DNA of 64,000 bases from Candidatus Hodarchaeota archaeon (GCA_048886685.1 JBHLKM010000006.1:64001-128000); one strand, 5' to 3'. Numbered from the stretch's first letter, positions 33,289 through 52,135 are shown. Notes: a model not told the origin generated them from the letters alone. A program made the numbers and translations.

Positions 33289-34806
33289 ATGTCAAATATA
33301 TTTCAGAAGTTAGAAAATATCGTTTCAAAAAGGAACATTTCAAATAGTTTAATTGTTCGACATGCATATTCTAGAAATGTTGACCCTGTATTACAGGGTG
33401 TTCCAGATATTGTAATTAGACCTAAAGATGCTCAAGAAATTTCCGAAATTCTTAAGATCGCTAATGAACAGAATATTCCAGTTACCCCTCGCGGAGGTGG
33501 AGATTGTGAATTTGGAGGAAGTAAACCAATCGGGGACGGTGGAATAGTTCTTGATATAAAACGGATGAATAACATTATAAATTTAGATCAGGAAAATCTC
33601 ATAGTTACAGTAGAAGCAGGGATATCATGGGGAAAGTTAAATGAATATTTATGCCATTATGGGCTTTATACTGGTTGTATGGGACCTGGATCTGGAATGA
33701 CGGCTTCTGTCGGTGGTGGTATTTCGCATCATTCCGTTGGTGGTGGTGGATGTGCTAAATATGGAGCATGTACAAACCAGTTAGTATCACTAGAAGTAGT
33801 TTTGCCCACCGGGAAAATTATTGAGACCGGTTCTCAAGCAAATAAATTCTCAAAGTATCCTTTTAACCGATTCGGGAATGGACCTGATTTAGCAGGTCTG
33901 TTTTGTGGGGATAACGGAATTATGGGAATAAAAACTACAATTTCATTGCAAGTATTTCCAAAACCTCCTTTTGCGAATTACAAAACTTTTCAATTACCTC
34001 GAAAAGAAATGGAAGCCGCAACCCAAATCTTTACAGAAATAAGGAAAAAAGGCATTGATGTTTACGATGCTATGCATATTCTCAATTCTCTTATTATTCC
34101 TTACTCTCTATTGGAAATGTATCCACTGTGGGAAAGTTTAAAAAGCAAAAGAGGGATTTTTTTCTACACAGTTGAAGCAAATTCAGAAACAGAATTAGAT
34201 GAAAAAGTAAAACAATTAGATAATATAATATTAAATAAGAAATGTGAAGAGTTAGGTCCTGAAATCTCAGATGGAAATTATGCTAAATGGCATTATGCTG
34301 AACAAGGACATTGGCAATTATATCATAATTTATGGAGTCCCCTTCCTTCCCTAACTCCATTGACAGCTGAATGTTTTACTCCTATTAACTCTTACCCTAG
34401 GATTTTACAAGAAATTGAACAATGGGATTTGGAACACAATGAAGATATGCAAAAAATTACAGACATAACAGGTCAGCGACCAGGGTCAGGAAGTGGACCG
34501 ATTTTATTAATAGATGGATGTAATGTTGAATTAACATGTGGGTTAATTAGTTTCGGAAATTATTACGATGGTGAAATACATGAAGAATTTGAAGAAATTA
34601 ATCTGAGACTATGGAGAACTCTTTTAGAGACAATAATAAAACAAGGGGCACAATATTATATGATGGGCGATTTTAATTCACGCGTTATGGTTGAGATGGG
34701 TGCCTATCCCGTTGAATTCTATAATCTTATGAAGTCAATTAAAAAAATTCTTGATCCAAAGTGTATTTTAAGTCGAGGAAAATATAATCTCTGGGGAGGT
34801 GACTAA
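33289..34806 (+). CDS. FAD-binding oxidoreductase (GlcD/VAO family)
   Basis: PDIVIRP, PRGGG, LEVVLPTG, DPKCILSRGK. Confidence 0.9.
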   Translation: MSNIFQKLENIVSKRNISNSLIVRHAYSRNVDPVLQGVPDIVIRPKDAQEISEILKIANEQNIPVTPRGGGDCEFGGSKPIGDGGIVLDIKRMNNIINLDQENLIVTVEAGISWGKLNEYLCHYGLYTGCMGPGSGMTASVGGGISHHSVGGGGCAKYGACTNQLVSLEVVLPTGKIIETGSQANKFSKYPFNRFGNGPDLAGLFCGDNGIMGIKTTISLQVFPKPPFANYKTFQLPRKEMEAATQIFTEIRKKGIDVYDAMHILNSLIIPYSLLEMYPLWESLKSKRGIFFYTVEANSETELDEKVKQLDNIILNKKCEELGPEISDGNYAKWHYAEQGHWQLYHNLWSPLPSLTPLTAECFTPINSYPRILQEIEQWDLEHNEDMQKITDITGQRPGSGSGPILLIDGCNVELTCGLISFGNYYDGEIHEEFEEINLRLWRTLLETIIKQGAQYYMMGDFNSRVMVEMGAYPVEFYNLMKSIKKILDPKCILSRGKYNLWGGD

Positions 34807-36073
34807 TATTAACAAATTAGAAAATTTAAGGAAAGAATGGCAAGCCATATTCTCTTGTATAATTCTCTAGATCTACTAGAAAATGCAAAAGGGGTGTGGC
34901 GATTGTGGGTATGCTATTAGACCTGCTGTTGGACGATATTTAACATGTCCTATAAAGGAAGCTAAAGAGGAGGAAGGTTTTGAGATATATTTCTCACGTG
35001 GTAGAATGAACGTTCTTAAGAGCGTTTTAGAGGGGAAACTGCCATTAAGCAGAGAATTAGCAGAATTTGCATATCAATGCATGGAATGTGCTAATTGTAC
35101 TGAAGTATGTCATGAAACTCATAATGAGAATATTGTTCTTAACACTTCAAAATGGATTGACCATGTTAAAGTGTGGGAAGCCTTAAGGAAAGATTTGGTA
35201 GAAGCCGGATTCGCACCTTTAGATAAGCATAGAAATATAGTTAATTCTATGGTTAGTGATTCGATGAGAAATCCTTATGGTGAGGATAAAGAAGATAAAT
35301 TTAGTTGGGCAAATGAATTTCCAGAGATTCGGGAGAAAGGAGATCTTGCCTTTTTTGGAGGATGTACAATTCCACTAAGACAAAAAAATACTCTTAAGAG
35401 CATGATGAAAATTTTCAAAACCACTGGAATCAATTTTGCCATATCTAAGGATGAATGGTGCTGTGGATCCATAGGATTACGTATTGGTGATGAAATGGCT
35501 TTAACTGATATAATCAAACATAATGTTGAAGTTTTTAAGAATATAGGAGCAAAAGCATTATTTACAAGTTGTGCTGGATGCTATAGAACATTGAAAAAGG
35601 ATTATCCTGAATTCTTGGAGGAAGAGTTGCCATTTGAAGTAAAACACATAACAGAAATATTAATTGAGCTTCTTAATAGTAATCAAATTCCATTTAAACC
35701 AGAGGAGGGTAAGAAATTAAAAGTAACTTACCATGATCCTTGCCATCTGGGGCGTCATATGGATTTATATGAAATCCCAAGAGATGTTGTAGCGAAAATC
35801 CCTGGAATAGAATTAATAGAAATGAAAAGAAATCGAAAGCATGCTTGGTGTTGTGGAGCCGGAGGTGGTGTAAAAAGTCAATATCCTGAATTAGCTCTTG
35901 AAATCTCAAAGGAGAGAATTAAAGAAGCAATTGAAGCGGGAGCAAATATACTAACTACTAGCTGTCCTTTCTGTCTTGGTAATCTAAATGATGCGTATAA
36001 TGAAATGGGCGCAGAAATCCAAGAAAAAATAAAATTAGTTGACATTATTAACTTAATTGCATCAAAAATATAA
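34799..36073 (+). CDS. HdrD/GlcF-like Fe-S oxidoreductase, join(34799..34860,34891..36073)
   Basis: Upstream exon MTNINKLENLRKEWQAIFSC aligns with the N-terminus of paralog 20001-21422; splicing gives CMGCGDC; CMECANCTEVC, WCCG, YHDPCH. Exact start codon uncertain. Confidence 0.85.
34861..34890 (+). other. Putative BHB (tRNA-endonuclease type) mRNA intron, 30 nt
   Basis: UUGU/GCAA 4-bp helix, bulges AUA and AAG, inner stem AUUCUCUAG/CUAGAAAAU, outer exon helix; two in-frame TAG; removal restores CxxCxxC. Confidence 0.8.
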
Positions 36074-36304: not shown

Positions 36305-37210
36305 ATGACAACAAACAAAATTTCTTTAATTGGTAAACCAGCGGTTGGTAAAACTACTATTAAAAAAGTTATTTTTGAAGGAGAAGATCCAAATGATTTA
36401 ATTCTATTTCCACTTGAGGCAACGTTAAAAGTTCAGTACTCCATACATGATTTTATGGATTCTAAAGTTAGTCTAGTTGATGCACCTGGTCAATCATTGC
36501 AAGTAATTTTTGAAGATGAACAAAAACAATTAATGGTGTTTGGAGATACTAAGGCAATTATTTATATTTTGGACTATCCAACTTGGATATCAAACTCTCA
36601 AGATATTCTTGATGATGTCAGAAAACTTTATGAAATTAGCAAAAAAAATGATTTTGATGCCAAAATAATACTGTTTCTTCATAAAATTGATGTATTAATT
36701 AATAAAAAAATCGGTAGTATGCTAGCCTTAATAAGAAGACAGATAAATAACCAATTAAATCTGCCTGTGGAGATTCCAATTTATTTTACAAGTTTACATC
36801 CGAATTTAATATATACTACATATAATGCGATTTCTGAAACTTTGAGTAATTTTTCAGCAGAGGCTTCTAACTTAAAGAATATTGTCAAGAAAAAAATTAA
36901 GGGTTTATCTAAAACAAGTTGCTTTGTTTCTAATAAAGACGATAATTTAATTATTCAAGAAATGTCAAATGATTTTGATACTAGTATTCTGTATTATTTA
37001 TTTGAAAAGATTTATCATTTAAGCAAATCAACTGAATTTTCAACCACAAAAACCAGAATAATAAGTCCTGGTTCAAAAATTTTAAATATGGTAATAGAAG
37101 ATATAAGCAACTATAACTCTAATTTTAAATATCTGATTTTATTATCTGAAACCATAGAACAAGAAGATATGATGAAGATATTAGACGATTTAAAGAATGA
37201 ATTGAATTAA
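36305..37210 (+). CDS. Rag/Gtr1-like small GTPase with C-terminal roadblock-like region
   Basis: GKPAVGKT, DAPGQ, FLHKID, YFTS. Confidence 0.8.
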   Translation: MTTNKISLIGKPAVGKTTIKKVIFEGEDPNDLILFPLEATLKVQYSIHDFMDSKVSLVDAPGQSLQVIFEDEQKQLMVFGDTKAIIYILDYPTWISNSQDILDDVRKLYEISKKNDFDAKIILFLHKIDVLINKKIGSMLALIRRQINNQLNLPVEIPIYFTSLHPNLIYTTYNAISETLSNFSAEASNLKNIVKKKIKGLSKTSCFVSNKDDNLIIQEMSNDFDTSILYYLFEKIYHLSKSTEFSTTKTRIISPGSKILNMVIEDISNYNSNFKYLILLSETIEQEDMMKILDDLKNELN

Positions 37211-37245: not shown

Positions 37246-38298
37246 ATGCTACGACAAGTCTTTATAGTTTTAAACGATAAAATTTGTTATCAGAGGAGTT
37301 ATGCTAAAGGTTTAGATATTTCACTTTTTACAAAGGTTTTTCAAAAAATCAAGAAAGTAGCCTTTTCGAAATTTGGAAGTGAAACAGGAATATATGAGTT
37401 TTTTGAGTATAAGCTTTCATATATAGTTGATGAAGATCTAAACTTTGTTTTACTTTTTGTATCAGGATTAGGTGATAACTTTGAAGATATCGAACCACAA
37501 CTAAAAAATTTCAAAAACGAATTTATTAATTTCTATGGTGATGACCTAAGTAATGAGAACTTTGAAATCGTAAGTGAAGTTTTAGATCCAATCGTTGATA
37601 ATATTCATAGAAATTTAAAACCGAAAATTTCAATTGTAGGATTTTCTGGAGTGGGCAAAACCACAACAACCAAATTGATAAAATCAGAAGAAATTCCTAT
37701 GCAGCATATCCCAACAATTACTGGTGAGGTTGCTACTATTAAGATAGGCAAACTCCACTTCTTTTTATGGGATTTCGCTGGACAAGACCAATTTGACTTT
37801 CTATGGGAGAAATTTATAAGAGGAAGTGATGCTGTTCTTTTGATGACCGATTCAACATTAGAAAATCTTGATAAGAGTAGATATTTCTTTGATTTGGTTA
37901 ATAAAATAGTTCCTTATGCACGTCTCGCTGTAATCGCAAATAAGCAAGACTTACCCGACGCAATGAAAGTTGAAGATATAGAGAGATTATTGGGAAATAA
38001 AACATACTCAATGGTAGCAATAGATCCAAATAATCGATCTAAAATGATACGGATCATTGCAGATCTGTTAGATATGGATGCAGGAGTATCTCCTTTATTA
38101 CAACCTATATTTGAAAGAGATATGTTAATGGATAAAGCACAAAAAGCATTAGAAGAAGGACGATTCGAGGAAGCTGTTTCTCTTTTTGAGAAGATCAGTA
38201 GTTTTTGTCTTGAATTAGGAGATGATTCTCTTGCTATTGACTTTCAAAATAAAAGCGACAAAATTAATAGTTTATTAAAATCTCTTACTAACCAATAA
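37246..38298 (+). CDS. Longin-like + Arf-family-like small GTPase + helical tail (copy 1)
   Basis: GFSGVGKT, PTI, WDFAGQ, ANKQDL. Confidence 0.88.
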   Translation: MLRQVFIVLNDKICYQRSYAKGLDISLFTKVFQKIKKVAFSKFGSETGIYEFFEYKLSYIVDEDLNFVLLFVSGLGDNFEDIEPQLKNFKNEFINFYGDDLSNENFEIVSEVLDPIVDNIHRNLKPKISIVGFSGVGKTTTTKLIKSEEIPMQHIPTITGEVATIKIGKLHFFLWDFAGQDQFDFLWEKFIRGSDAVLLMTDSTLENLDKSRYFFDLVNKIVPYARLAVIANKQDLPDAMKVEDIERLLGNKTYSMVAIDPNNRSKMIRIIADLLDMDAGVSPLLQPIFERDMLMDKAQKALEEGRFEEAVSLFEKISSFCLELGDDSLAIDFQNKSDKINSLLKSLTNQ

Positions 38299-38473: not shown

Positions 38474-39523
38474 ATGTTGCGCCAAATATTTATAATTTTA
38501 AATGATCAATTAATATATCAAAGGGATTATGCTAAAGGATTAGATAAATCACTTTTTACAAATGTATGTCAAATAGTTAAAAACACTGAGCATTCAAAGT
38601 TTGGAACAGAGCCAAGTATATACGAGTTTTTTAAGTATAAAGTCTCATATATTGTTGATGAGAATTCTGGTTTAATTATACTTTTTGTATCTGGATTAAT
38701 TGACGATCCTAAACGGATTAAACCCCAACTGATAAAATTTAAAGAAGAATTTTTAGAATACTATGGTGATAGCCTTAAAAACGAAGATTTTAAAATAATT
38801 AATGAAGTTTTAGACCCGATTGTTGATAAGATTCACAGTAACCTTAAACCTAAAATTTCTATCGTTGGGTTTTCTGGGGTCGGGAAAACTACTGCTACAA
38901 GATTAATAAAATCAGAGGAAATCCCAATGCAACACATCCCTACAATAACAGGTGAGGTTGCTACTATTAAGATAGGCAAACTCCACTTCTTTTTATGGGA
39001 TTTCGCTGGACAAGATGAGTTCGATTTTTTATGGGAAAAGTTCATAATGGGAAGTGATTCGGTGCTCTTAATGACCGATTCCACCTTGGAAAACCTAGAA
39101 AAAAGCAAATTTTTTATCGAATTAGTTTATAAAGCAGTTCCTAATGCTCGATTCGCAGTGATCGCTAACAAGCAAGATTTACCAGGCGCGATGAAAGTTG
39201 AGGACATAGAAAAATTAATGGGCAAAAAAACATATGGTTTTGTTGCAATAGATCCTGATAATCGTCCAAAAATGATACGTATTATAGCAGATTTATTAGA
39301 GATGGATGCAAACGTATCACCACTATTAAAACCCTTACTTGAAAGAGAAAATTTAATGGATAAAGCACAGAAGGCTTTAGAAAAGGGAAATTTTGAAGAA
39401 GCTGTTATACTTTTTGAAAAGATTAGTAATATATGTCTTGAATTAGGAGATGACTCACTCGCTATTGATTTCCAAAGCAAAAGTGAAAAAATAAGTACTA
39501 TGTTAAATTCCATTATTAGCTAA
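38474..39523 (+). CDS. Longin-like + Arf-family-like small GTPase + helical tail (copy 2)
   Basis: Close tandem paralog of 37246-38298. Confidence 0.88.
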   Translation: MLRQIFIILNDQLIYQRDYAKGLDKSLFTNVCQIVKNTEHSKFGTEPSIYEFFKYKVSYIVDENSGLIILFVSGLIDDPKRIKPQLIKFKEEFLEYYGDSLKNEDFKIINEVLDPIVDKIHSNLKPKISIVGFSGVGKTTATRLIKSEEIPMQHIPTITGEVATIKIGKLHFFLWDFAGQDEFDFLWEKFIMGSDSVLLMTDSTLENLEKSKFFIELVYKAVPNARFAVIANKQDLPGAMKVEDIEKLMGKKTYGFVAIDPDNRPKMIRIIADLLEMDANVSPLLKPLLERENLMDKAQKALEKGNFEEAVILFEKISNICLELGDDSLAIDFQSKSEKISTMLNSIIS

Positions 39524-51267: not shown

Positions 51268-51433
51268 ACTTTTTTTTCTTTATTTTTAGGACTTTTAGAA
51301 TTACTGATTTAAATATATAGAATTATTTTTTGTATAAATTATAGAATTAAATAGAAAAAAAACAGAAATTAAGTAATGAAATTTATTTAGGGAACTTAAT
51401 AGTATAAATTAATTTCAAACCGGTAAAGATAAT

Positions 51434-52135
51434 ATGGAAATAAAAACTGATGTTTGCAATGGTTGCGGACAATGTGTCATTGTTTGTCCTGTTCTAGCAA
51501 TAGAAATGATTGATAATAAAGCGGTTGTAGATGAAGAAAAATGTGTTGAATGCTCAGTTTGTTATAGGAATGCTAATTGTCCTGTTAATGGAATTAGGAT
51601 GAAAAAGTTAAAGTGGCCTAGAGAAATTCGAATTCCTTTCAGTAATGTCATTACTACTCACAAAATAACAGGTGTAGCAGGTAGAGGAACTGAAGAGATG
51701 AAAACCAATGATGTGACCAATCGCTATAATTTTGGCGAATTTGGTGTCTCAATTGAACTAGGCCGTCCAGGGTTAGGAACAAGACTTCGAAATATCGAAT
51801 TATTCACAACCAAATTTGCTGAAATTGGTGTAATATATGAAGAGAAAAGTCCAGTTACAACATTAATTATCGATGATAAAGGGCATATAAACGAAGAAAT
51901 AAAGAATGAACGGGTTTTGTCTGCGATAATAGAATTAAAAATTCCTTCTGAGAAATTACCTCGTATTTTGAAAGTAATCAGGGAGGTAGAGAATGAAATT
52001 GATACTGTTTTTTCTGTTGGGATCGTTTCAAGAATAGAAGAAAATAATACAGATGAGATTATAAATCGGTTGTCTCAATTAGGGTTCGAAGTTAGACCTA
52101 ATGCTAAAATAAATATTGGATTAGGTAGACCATGA
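51434..52135 (+). CDS. 2x[4Fe-4S] ferredoxin-domain protein
   Basis: CNGCGQCVIVCP, CVECSVC...CP, GRGTEEMKTNDVT. Confidence 0.85.
   Translation: MEIKTDVCNGCGQCVIVCPVLAIEMIDNKAVVDEEKCVECSVCYRNANCPVNGIRMKKLKWPREIRIPFSNVITTHKITGVAGRGTEEMKTNDVTNRYNFGEFGVSIELGRPGLGTRLRNIELFTTKFAEIGVIYEEKSPVTTLIIDDKGHINEEIKNERVLSAIIELKIPSEKLPRILKVIREVENEIDTVFSVGIVSRIEENNTDEIINRLSQLGFEVRPNAKINIGLGRP

What the first reader, a model, noticed from the sequence alone, without database searches (positions are those of the whole stretch)
34799..34910. Canonical bulge-helix-bulge intron inside a protein-coding Fe-S oxidoreductase gene
Seen: the ORF called at 34883 lacks the first Cys of its CxxCxxC motif. The missing N-terminus lies in frame upstream (MTNINKLENLRKEWQAIFSC; compare paralog MERLEELRKDIFKCIHCKAC), separated by a 30-nt insert with two in-frame TAGs (34868, 34877). 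The RNA folds as outer helix (GCCAUA..CUC / GGG UGUGGC), 4-bp helix UUGU(34855-58)/GCAA(34885-88), 3-nt bulges AUA(34859-61) and AAG(34889-91), and inner stem AUUCUCUAG/CUAGAAAAU with one mismatch. Established: archaeal EndA cuts after the second nucleotide of each bulge. That removes exactly 34861-34890 and gives UGU AUG GGG UGU GGC GAU UGU = C-M-G-C-G-D-C. The well-known archaeal mRNA example is crenarchaeal cbf5. Inference: this is a functional intron in an Asgard metabolic gene, and splicing is required to build the Fe-S cluster motif.
Basis: partly seen in the sequence, partly recalled or inferred. Interest (0 to 1): 0.95.

Follow-up and report, generated by a model that had tools for sequence, protein, structure and literature searches.

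The report
tRNA-type intron in Asgard enzyme gene
A 30-base intron of the kind archaea cut out of tRNAs breaks an iron-sulfur enzyme gene of an Asgard archaeon; about 130 related genes show that it very probably has to be spliced out of the messenger RNA (in the papers I could search shown for only one archaeal protein gene) and that it spreads between hosts together with a selfish DNA-cutting gene.

Summary
Confirmed. Window 34861-34890 is a real 30-nt insert (identical in another sample's contig) with two in-frame stops; removing it at the bulge-helix-bulge (BHB) cut sites gives C-M-G-C-G-D-C, the commonest sequence of intron-free orthologs. Of 132 distinct Promethearchaeota junctions, 57 carry different hairpin inserts at exactly this site; all break the frame, the 4-bp central helix pairs in 187/188 cells with compensatory changes, and both exons stay under purifying selection. 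Ten are tandem doubles predicted to need ordered splicing. The genome has EndA (two subunits), RtcB, and similar inserts in single-copy uL11 and uvrB. The window looks like the end state after the nuclease cassette was lost. No RNA data: splicing and cutting are inferred; the BHB is not the lowest-energy fold. The scan noted this gene's introns and similar cassettes before on other DNA; in print I found only cbf5 and a Haloferax 5'-UTR case.

The parts
33289..34806 (+). Upstream operon partner: GlcD-like FAD-linked oxidoreductase (505 aa)
   Evidence: PF01565 E 3e-36; best NCBIfam hit glcD, below cut-off; directly upstream of the Fe-S gene in 64 of 72 intron-free orthologs
34799..34860 (+). 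Exon 1: start (GTG 34799, or ATT 34808), about 20 codons, first Cys of the CxxCxxC motif (TGT 34856-58) and the first two bases of the Met codon
   Evidence: W, A, S, C invariant in 54 intron-bearing orthologs, dN/dS 0.12
34861..34890 (+). 30-nt BHB intron with two in-frame TAG; inner hairpin 34862-70 / 34876-84, 5-nt loop
34855..34858 (+). Central helix, exon strand (UUGU), pairs with intron 34885-88 (GCAA)
   Evidence: paired in 187 of 188 cells over 47 distinct single introns; 100% in 32 aligned variants
34859..34861 (+). 5' bulge AU|A, predicted cut after 34860
   Evidence: AUA in 46 of 47 single introns
34885..34888 (+). Central helix, intron strand (GCAA)
34889..34891 (+). 3' bulge AA|G, predicted cut after 34890; in 10 ortholog variants a second intron sits exactly here
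34844..34900 (+). Outer exon-exon helix: 34852-54 with 34892-94 and 34844-49 with 34895-900
   Evidence: pair C17-G56 in 28 of 32; Ser codon before the Cys is TCT/TCC/TCG in all intron-bearing variants but AGY in 31 of 75 intron-free ones
34891..36073 (+). Exon 2: rest of a GlcF/GlpC/HdrD-type protein (ferredoxin-type Cys motifs plus two CCG domains)
   Evidence: PF02754 twice, E 1.5e-39; NCBIfam TfrB/LdhH/GlpC/GlcF hits below cut-off for an intron-free ortholog; dN/dS 0.06

Best explanation
The insert is an mRNA intron removed by the tRNA-splicing machinery. The pre-mRNA folds into a BHB; the two-subunit EndA cuts after 34860 and 34890; RtcB joins AU and G into the Met codon, so that the 20-codon first exon with the first cluster cysteine is read into the Fe-S/CCG subunit of a GlcD/GlcF-type flavoprotein pair. 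Shown: the insert, its exact site, covariation of the BHB, selection on both exons, presence of the enzymes. Inferred: cleavage, ligation, the Fe-S role of the Cys. How it got there (less certain, about 0.7): a cassette [double-HNH nuclease gene, often with passengers + replacement exon 1 + intron] invades the intron-free allele near the C-M-G codons; the intron and altered silent bases would make the carrier immune, splicing makes the intron harmless; the old exon-1 start is left as a stub behind the FAD gene; the nuclease decays and recombination between old and new exon 1 can delete the cassette, leaving the state seen in the window (operon intact, intron only).
For: 57 distinct inserts at one AT|G site among 132 distinct ortholog junctions; lengths 29-34 (47) and 56-63 (10); none keeps the frame open. 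Central helix 187/188 paired vs 167.4 +- 2.7 in shuffles; first three inner pairs 132/141 vs 84.7; 31-nt introns only 56% alike; covariation score 0.383 vs 0.172 shuffled and at most 0.13 when slid. Silent exon positions co-vary with the intron strand (Ser third base with U-A, C-G, G-U, G-C pairs; all eight Cys TGC pair with G). In the ten doubles the second intron's own helix pairs with the first intron's 3' strand (3-4 of 4) and not with exon 1. 57 of 58 complete intron-bearing copies have an intact exon 2; dN/dS 0.12 and 0.06, like intron-free copies. Most inserts contain no in-frame start. The window copy is the only ortholog in G000 (next best 40%). EndA catalytic-type (Tyr/His/Lys) and structural-type paralogs and RtcB present. 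Single-copy uL11 and uvrB of G000 are broken by 35- and 29-nt BHB-like inserts. Spread: intron scattered on the tree (35 changes, shuffled mean 43); intron identity uncorrelated with exon-2 identity (rho -0.03); close pairs that differ in intron state differ at 39% of the 15 bases before the site vs 10% in same-state pairs; 13 intron-bearing and 0 intron-free loci have the same double-HNH gene directly upstream; of 15 loci with long flanks 9 have the HNH gene or a remnant and 5 have an exon-1 stub, one ending 3-4 bases past the intron site, three about 15 bases before it.
Against: No spliced RNA, intron circle or cleavage assay. The BHB is not the predicted minimum-energy fold (about 6 kcal/mol above in the window, median 2.9 in 47 variants) and RNAalifold does not find it. 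Orthologs are related and partly redundant, so shuffle tests overstate. The window's start codon is unusual. G000 itself has no match to this HNH protein, the HNH family also occurs at unrelated sites, and its target has not been tested; the intron-free loci were read only 1.5 kb upstream.
Confidence: 0.92

Rival explanations
1. Pseudogene: a chance insertion inactivated the gene and the BHB shape is coincidental.
For: BHB-like shapes are at chance level genome-wide; weak folding z-score; G000 has about nine 30-40% paralogs that might substitute.
Against: 57 different inserts at one site, all with a paired central helix; exon 2 intact in 57 of 58; dN/dS 0.06-0.12.
Confidence: 0.02
2. No splicing: translation restarts at ATG 34883 (or reads exon 2 alone) and yields a protein without the first Cys; exon 1 is vestigial.
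For: ATG 34883 is in frame in the window.
Against: Most other inserts have no in-frame start before the second Cys; exon 1 is under purifying selection and its Cys invariant; this would not explain the covarying helix.
Confidence: 0.02
3. Ribosomal bypassing or recoding over a hairpin (T4 gene 60 type) rather than RNA splicing.
For: Short stop-containing hairpin insert; gene 60 also arose next to an HNH gene (PMC2988022).
Against: No matching take-off and landing codons (AUA vs AAG/AUG/UUG/AGG); the junction falls inside a codon; lengths vary in all three frames; the conserved feature is a 4-bp exon-intron helix with two 3-nt bulges.
Confidence: 0.02
4. It is a spliced intron, but it spreads without the HNH nuclease (ancestral intron with repeated precise loss, or passive homologous recombination); the HNH gene is a passenger.
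For: Many intron-bearing loci, the window included, have no HNH gene; the family also sits at unrelated sites; patchy distribution fits repeated loss too.
Against: 13:0 association with intron-bearing alleles; stubs of the intron-free exon 1 cut off at or just before the site; replacement exon 1 differs from the host's stub; near-identical introns in hosts only 67-74% alike.
Confidence: 0.25

Closest known systems
cbf5 pre-mRNA intron of Desulfurococcales and Sulfolobales (Watanabe 2002; Yokobori 2009, PMC2738675)
   Same: Short ORF-less intron (16-44 nt there, 29-34 here) inside a codon of a conserved, functionally critical motif; BHB boundaries cut between bulge bases 2 and 3; hetero-oligomeric EndA; gained and lost among relatives.
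   Different: Here an Asgard phylum and a metabolic Fe-S gene; one of several such genes in the same genome; mostly canonical central helix; tandem double introns; presence changes between strains 96-98% alike; linked to a free-standing HNH cassette. cbf5 splicing is shown by cDNA, this one is not.
Haloferax volcanii HVO_1309 5'-UTR BHB intron (Schwarz 2020, PMC7714728)
   Same: mRNA substrate of EndA.
   Different: Lies in the untranslated leader; the reading frame does not depend on it.
Asgard tRNA introns (Valentin-Alvarado 2024, PMC11291895; bioRxiv 10.64898/2026.10.13.758758)
   Same: Same size class, BHB boundaries, repeated gains, same enzymes; G000 has many intron-bearing tRNAs.
   Different: Those are in tRNA genes; the preprint mentions no mRNA introns and leaves the route of arrival open. 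No sequence match between these mRNA introns and other places of G000.
Collaborative homing in phages: free-standing endonuclease beside an ORF-less group I intron (T3/T7-like phages, cyanophage psbA; PMC2988022, PMC10448857)
   Same: Free-standing HNH gene next to an intron-bearing conserved gene, found only with intron-bearing alleles; short tract of changed exon bases beside the intron.
   Different: Intron is a protein-spliced 30-nt BHB intron, not a ribozyme; cellular archaeal chromosome; the cassette brings its own first exon and leaves a stub; nuclease has two HNH domains; cutting untested.

Membership tests
Archaeal BHB (EndA-type) intron | 4-bp central helix flanked by two 3-nt bulges on opposite strands | tested here: met
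   UUGU/GCAA, AUA, AAG in the window; 187/188 cells paired in 47 variants
Archaeal BHB (EndA-type) intron | Flanking intron helix and exon helix | tested here: met
   Inner first three pairs 132/141; first outer pair C-G in 28 of 32; outer helix relaxed in the Asn variants
Archaeal BHB (EndA-type) intron | Cuts after the second base of each bulge restore the uninterrupted product | tested here: met
   Gives CMGCGDC or CMNCGDC in all 57 variants, as in intron-free orthologs
Archaeal BHB (EndA-type) intron | BHB is the stable fold of the precursor | tested here: inconclusive
   About 6 kcal/mol above the predicted minimum; median 2.9 in variants; RNAalifold misses it
Archaeal BHB (EndA-type) intron | Host encodes EndA and an RNA ligase | tested here: met
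   Two PF01974 genes over cut-off, one with the Tyr/His/Lys triad; RtcB
Archaeal BHB (EndA-type) intron | Spliced RNA or excised circle observed; cleavage by EndA | not testable with these tools
   No RNA holder listed
Group I / group II self-splicing intron | Ribozyme core of hundreds of bases | tested here: not met
   Insert is 30 nt, a single hairpin
Collaborative homing unit | Free-standing homing-type nuclease gene beside the intron-bearing allele and not beside intron-free alleles | tested here: met
   In relatives 13 vs 0 within 1.5 kb; HNH_3 twice, E 3e-11. Not in the window's own genome
Collaborative homing unit | Changed exon bases next to the intron (co-conversion) | tested here: inconclusive
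   39% vs 10% mismatches in the 15 bases before the site; selection for the BHB pairing explains part of it
Collaborative homing unit | Nuclease cuts the intron-free allele at or near the insertion site and spares the intron-bearing one | not testable with these tools
   Only indirect: stubs end at +3/+4 and at about -15 from the site

The most novel reading that the evidence does not exclude
Lokiarchaeia splice many protein-coding mRNAs with the tRNA endonuclease and RtcB, including ordered two-step splicing of tandem introns, and these ORF-less 30-nt introns are spread into conserved motifs by free-standing nuclease cassettes that bring a replacement first exon and later vanish: an intron-invasion cycle in the closest prokaryotic relatives of eukaryotes.
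Probability: 0.65. Interest if true: 0.93.

Novelty: new variant of a known kind. Interest (0 to 1): 0.86.

Why it matters
Archaeal mRNA splicing is documented for one protein-coding frame (cbf5). A metabolic gene whose cluster ligand depends on splicing, in a genome where single-copy uL11 and uvrB are broken the same way, means that obligatory mRNA splicing exists in Asgard archaea and that their gene calls are truncated or split at such sites. The stubs and the HNH link give a concrete, testable route for how ORF-less BHB introns arrive, a question that the 2026 preprint on Asgard tRNA introns calls the central open problem. The mechanism is not spliceosomal, so it bears on eukaryotic introns only by analogy (and on tRNA-ligase-dependent mRNA splicing such as IRE1/XBP1, from my own knowledge).

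Tried and rejected
Sequencing runs: no RNA holder listed; no evidence either way. Two genome-wide de novo BHB scans: strict version with paralog support recovered only this locus convincingly; relaxed version is at decoy level, so no count of mRNA introns in G000 is given. RNAalifold on 32 variants gave a different, non-covarying hairpin. No copy of any of the introns elsewhere in G000, tRNA genes included: copying from tRNA introns not supported. No terminal inverted repeat or target duplication at the insert ends: not a MITE footprint. The L074 upstream ORF is a metallo-beta-lactamase-fold protein, not a nuclease of the cassette; the L057 upstream ORF has no family hit. HNH homologs in G016 and G017 are not next to this gene or an evident intron. 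Sigma-70 promoter scan is uninformative for an archaeon. The spliced protein has no reference, so an intron-free ortholog (L007) stood in for family and PDB searches; no structure was predicted. Searches failed on a strand slip; one search had an offset error corrected. Nine literature searches found no report of Asgard mRNA introns; the library lacks most subscription journals.

Full report
Observation. The window reads, in frame from GTG 34799, twenty codons ending in Ser-Cys, then 33 bases with TAG at 34868 and 34877, then Gly-Cys-Gly-Asp-Cys and a 393-codon open frame to 36073. Cutting after the second base of each bulge removes 34861-34890 and rebuilds a Met codon from AT and G; the product is 414 aa without stops. 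The start codon is GTG, or ATT 34808, which aligns with the orthologs' Met. A contig of another sample matches 33823-35017 without a difference, and a strain about 90% alike from another study lacks exactly these 30 bases in its DNA. The shape alone proves little: z = -1.9, the BHB conformer is about 6 kcal/mol above the predicted minimum, and in this 31% G+C genome BHB-like shapes between open frames are as common in a decoy register as in the true one.

The gene. The host is a Promethearchaeota (Lokiarchaeia) genome by its relatives' record titles. The gene encodes a GlcF/GlpC/HdrD-type protein with ferredoxin-type Cys motifs and two CCG domains, behind a GlcD-like FAD oxidoreductase; no family cut-off is met, so the substrate is open (a 2-hydroxy-acid dehydrogenase pair is the likeliest type, by family knowledge). 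It is the only ortholog-level copy in G000. That the first Cys ligates a [4Fe-4S] cluster follows from the CxxCxxC...CP pattern and its invariance in 126 orthologs; it was not tested.

Orthologs decide the matter. I collected 167 loci, which give 75 distinct junctions without and 57 with an insert. All inserts sit at the same AT|G position, all shift the frame or carry a stop, and all yield CMGCGDC or CMNCGDC when cut by the BHB rule. Their sequences are diverse (31-nt class 56% alike) but the central helix pairs in 187 of 188 cells (shuffled 167 +- 3) and the first three inner pairs in 132 of 141 (shuffled 85); on a 32-row alignment the covariation score is 0.383 against 0.172 shuffled and at most 0.13 for slid partners. 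Kin are not independent, so these are not probabilities, but silent exon bases change together with their intron partners in five pair types, and the Ser codon before the Cys is always TCT, TCC or TCG with an intron and AGY in 31 of 75 without. Exon 2 is intact in 57 of 58 complete intron-bearing copies and both exons are under purifying selection (dN/dS 0.12 and 0.06; intron-free 0.10 and 0.07). Most inserts hold no in-frame start. A short exon kept under selection in front of a frame-breaking insert needs the insert to be removed.

Tandem introns. Ten variants carry a second 26-32-nt intron exactly in the 3' bulge of the first. Its central helix uses the first intron's 3' strand (3-4 of 4 pairs) and cannot pair with exon 1, so the 3' intron should be removed first and recreate the first BHB. 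This is a prediction from pairing only.

Machinery and other genes. G000 has two EndA paralogs, one with the Tyr/His/Lys triad and one without, as in two-subunit enzymes, and RtcB. Following earlier scan notes I checked other genes: the only uL11 (35 nt), the only uvrB (29 nt), a PFK (31 and 30 nt), a gamma-carbonic anhydrase (31 nt) and a LURP-one-like gene (30 nt) are broken by inserts whose removal restores a long frame and whose ends form a full or relaxed BHB. I did not compare these with orthologs.

How it spreads. The intron is scattered over the exon-2 tree (35 changes; shuffled mean 43, minimum 36). Strains 96-98% alike have none, one or two introns; introns 93-97% alike occur in hosts 67-74% alike, and intron identity is uncorrelated with host identity (rho -0.03). 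Pairs that differ in state differ at 39% of the 15 bases before the site, against 10% in same-state pairs. 37 of 54 intron-bearing copies, but 8 of 72 intron-free ones, are separated from the FAD gene. Thirteen intron-bearing loci and no intron-free locus have the same large gene directly upstream; it holds two HNH_3 domains. With longer flanks for 15 loci, the FAD gene lay further upstream in 13, the HNH gene or a remnant was present in 9 (broken in four), and in five the FAD gene is followed by a stub of the old intron-free exon 1: one runs to Cys-Met-Gly and stops 3-4 bases past the intron site, three stop about 15 bases before it, one earlier. The simplest reading is a cassette of nuclease, replacement exon 1 and intron that entered at a break near the site, joined by homology in exon 2 and without homology upstream. 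Recombination between old and new exon 1 would delete the nuclease and leave the intron with a short tract of donor bases, which is the state of the window; G000 has no match to this HNH protein. This resembles collaborative homing of phages (PMC2988022, PMC10448857). Against exclusivity, the HNH family also occurs at unrelated sites, and no cutting has been shown. I noted the HNH idea before consulting the scan's notes; the search for stubs was prompted by them.

What is known. cbf5 is the one archaeal protein-coding frame with confirmed splicing; its authors note that other cases were only predicted (PMC2738675); a 2020 paper still calls it the only example and adds a 5'-UTR intron in Haloferax (PMC7714728). 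Asgard tRNAs are intron-rich (PMC11291895), and a 2026 preprint finds repeated gains, no general route of arrival, no RNA proof, and does not mention mRNA introns. My searches found no paper on Asgard mRNA introns. The scan itself has noted many such introns, this gene's tandem introns, and similar cassettes on other DNA; those notes are not independent support.

Verdict. [quoted passage not shown] New variant of a known kind; interest 0.86. The missing piece is RNA.

Noticed in passing
G000 C1:204867-204901 (+): The only uL11 gene is broken by a 35-nt frameshifting insert with a relaxed BHB (3 of 4 central pairs, 4-bp outer helix); removal restores the GPPIGPA motif.
   Followed up: partly
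G000 C3:215413-215441 (+): The only uvrB gene is broken by a 29-nt insert with a perfect central helix CCAG/CUGG; removal gives a 667-codon frame.
   Followed up: partly
G000 C16:51731-51761 and 51416-51445 (-); C5:244202-244231 (+): PFK gene with two BHB-like inserts at its GGG-D motifs; a partial, 90-94% alike PFK fragment on C5 carries a near-identical copy of the second insert.
   Followed up: partly
G000 C5:86550-86580 (+); C2:163694-163723 (-); C3:76491-76560 (+): Further BHB-like inserts in a gamma-carbonic anhydrase, a LURP-one-like gene and (two, around a micro-exon) a thiolase gene.
   Followed up: partly
window 34793-34810: The Fe-S gene has no ATG start; GGAGGTG (34795-34801) lies 6 nt before ATT 34808, which aligns with the orthologs' Met: possible AUU initiation.
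   Followed up: no
L196:7840-13490; L190:480-11060; L197:4830-11560; L185:120-6030: Blocks of 5-11 kb between the exon-1 stub and the replacement exon 1 carry varied passenger genes (membrane, leucine-rich-repeat-like, toxin-antitoxin-like, kinase-like) besides the HNH gene: the site acts as an insertion hotspot.
   Followed up: partly
L057:2-1285, L088 upstream: A second, unrelated ORF family (over 420 aa, repeated N-terminal units, possible PD-(D/E)XK end, no Pfam or PHROG hit) sits directly upstream of two intron-bearing copies; may be another nuclease using the same site.
   Followed up: no
L183 and L185 (G062): One genome bin holds both an intact intron-free operon and a cassette-invaded, intron-bearing copy; could be two strains in one bin or a true duplicate.
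   Followed up: no
window 37246-38298 and 38474-39523: Tandem, highly similar longin-domain/Arf-like small GTPase genes, preceded by a Rag/Gtr1-type GTPase (36305-37210).
   Followed up: no
L199, L200, L201: Double-HNH homologs (39-52% identity) at three unrelated sites in G016 and G017, tail to tail with or upstream of housekeeping genes, no intron seen nearby.
   Followed up: partly
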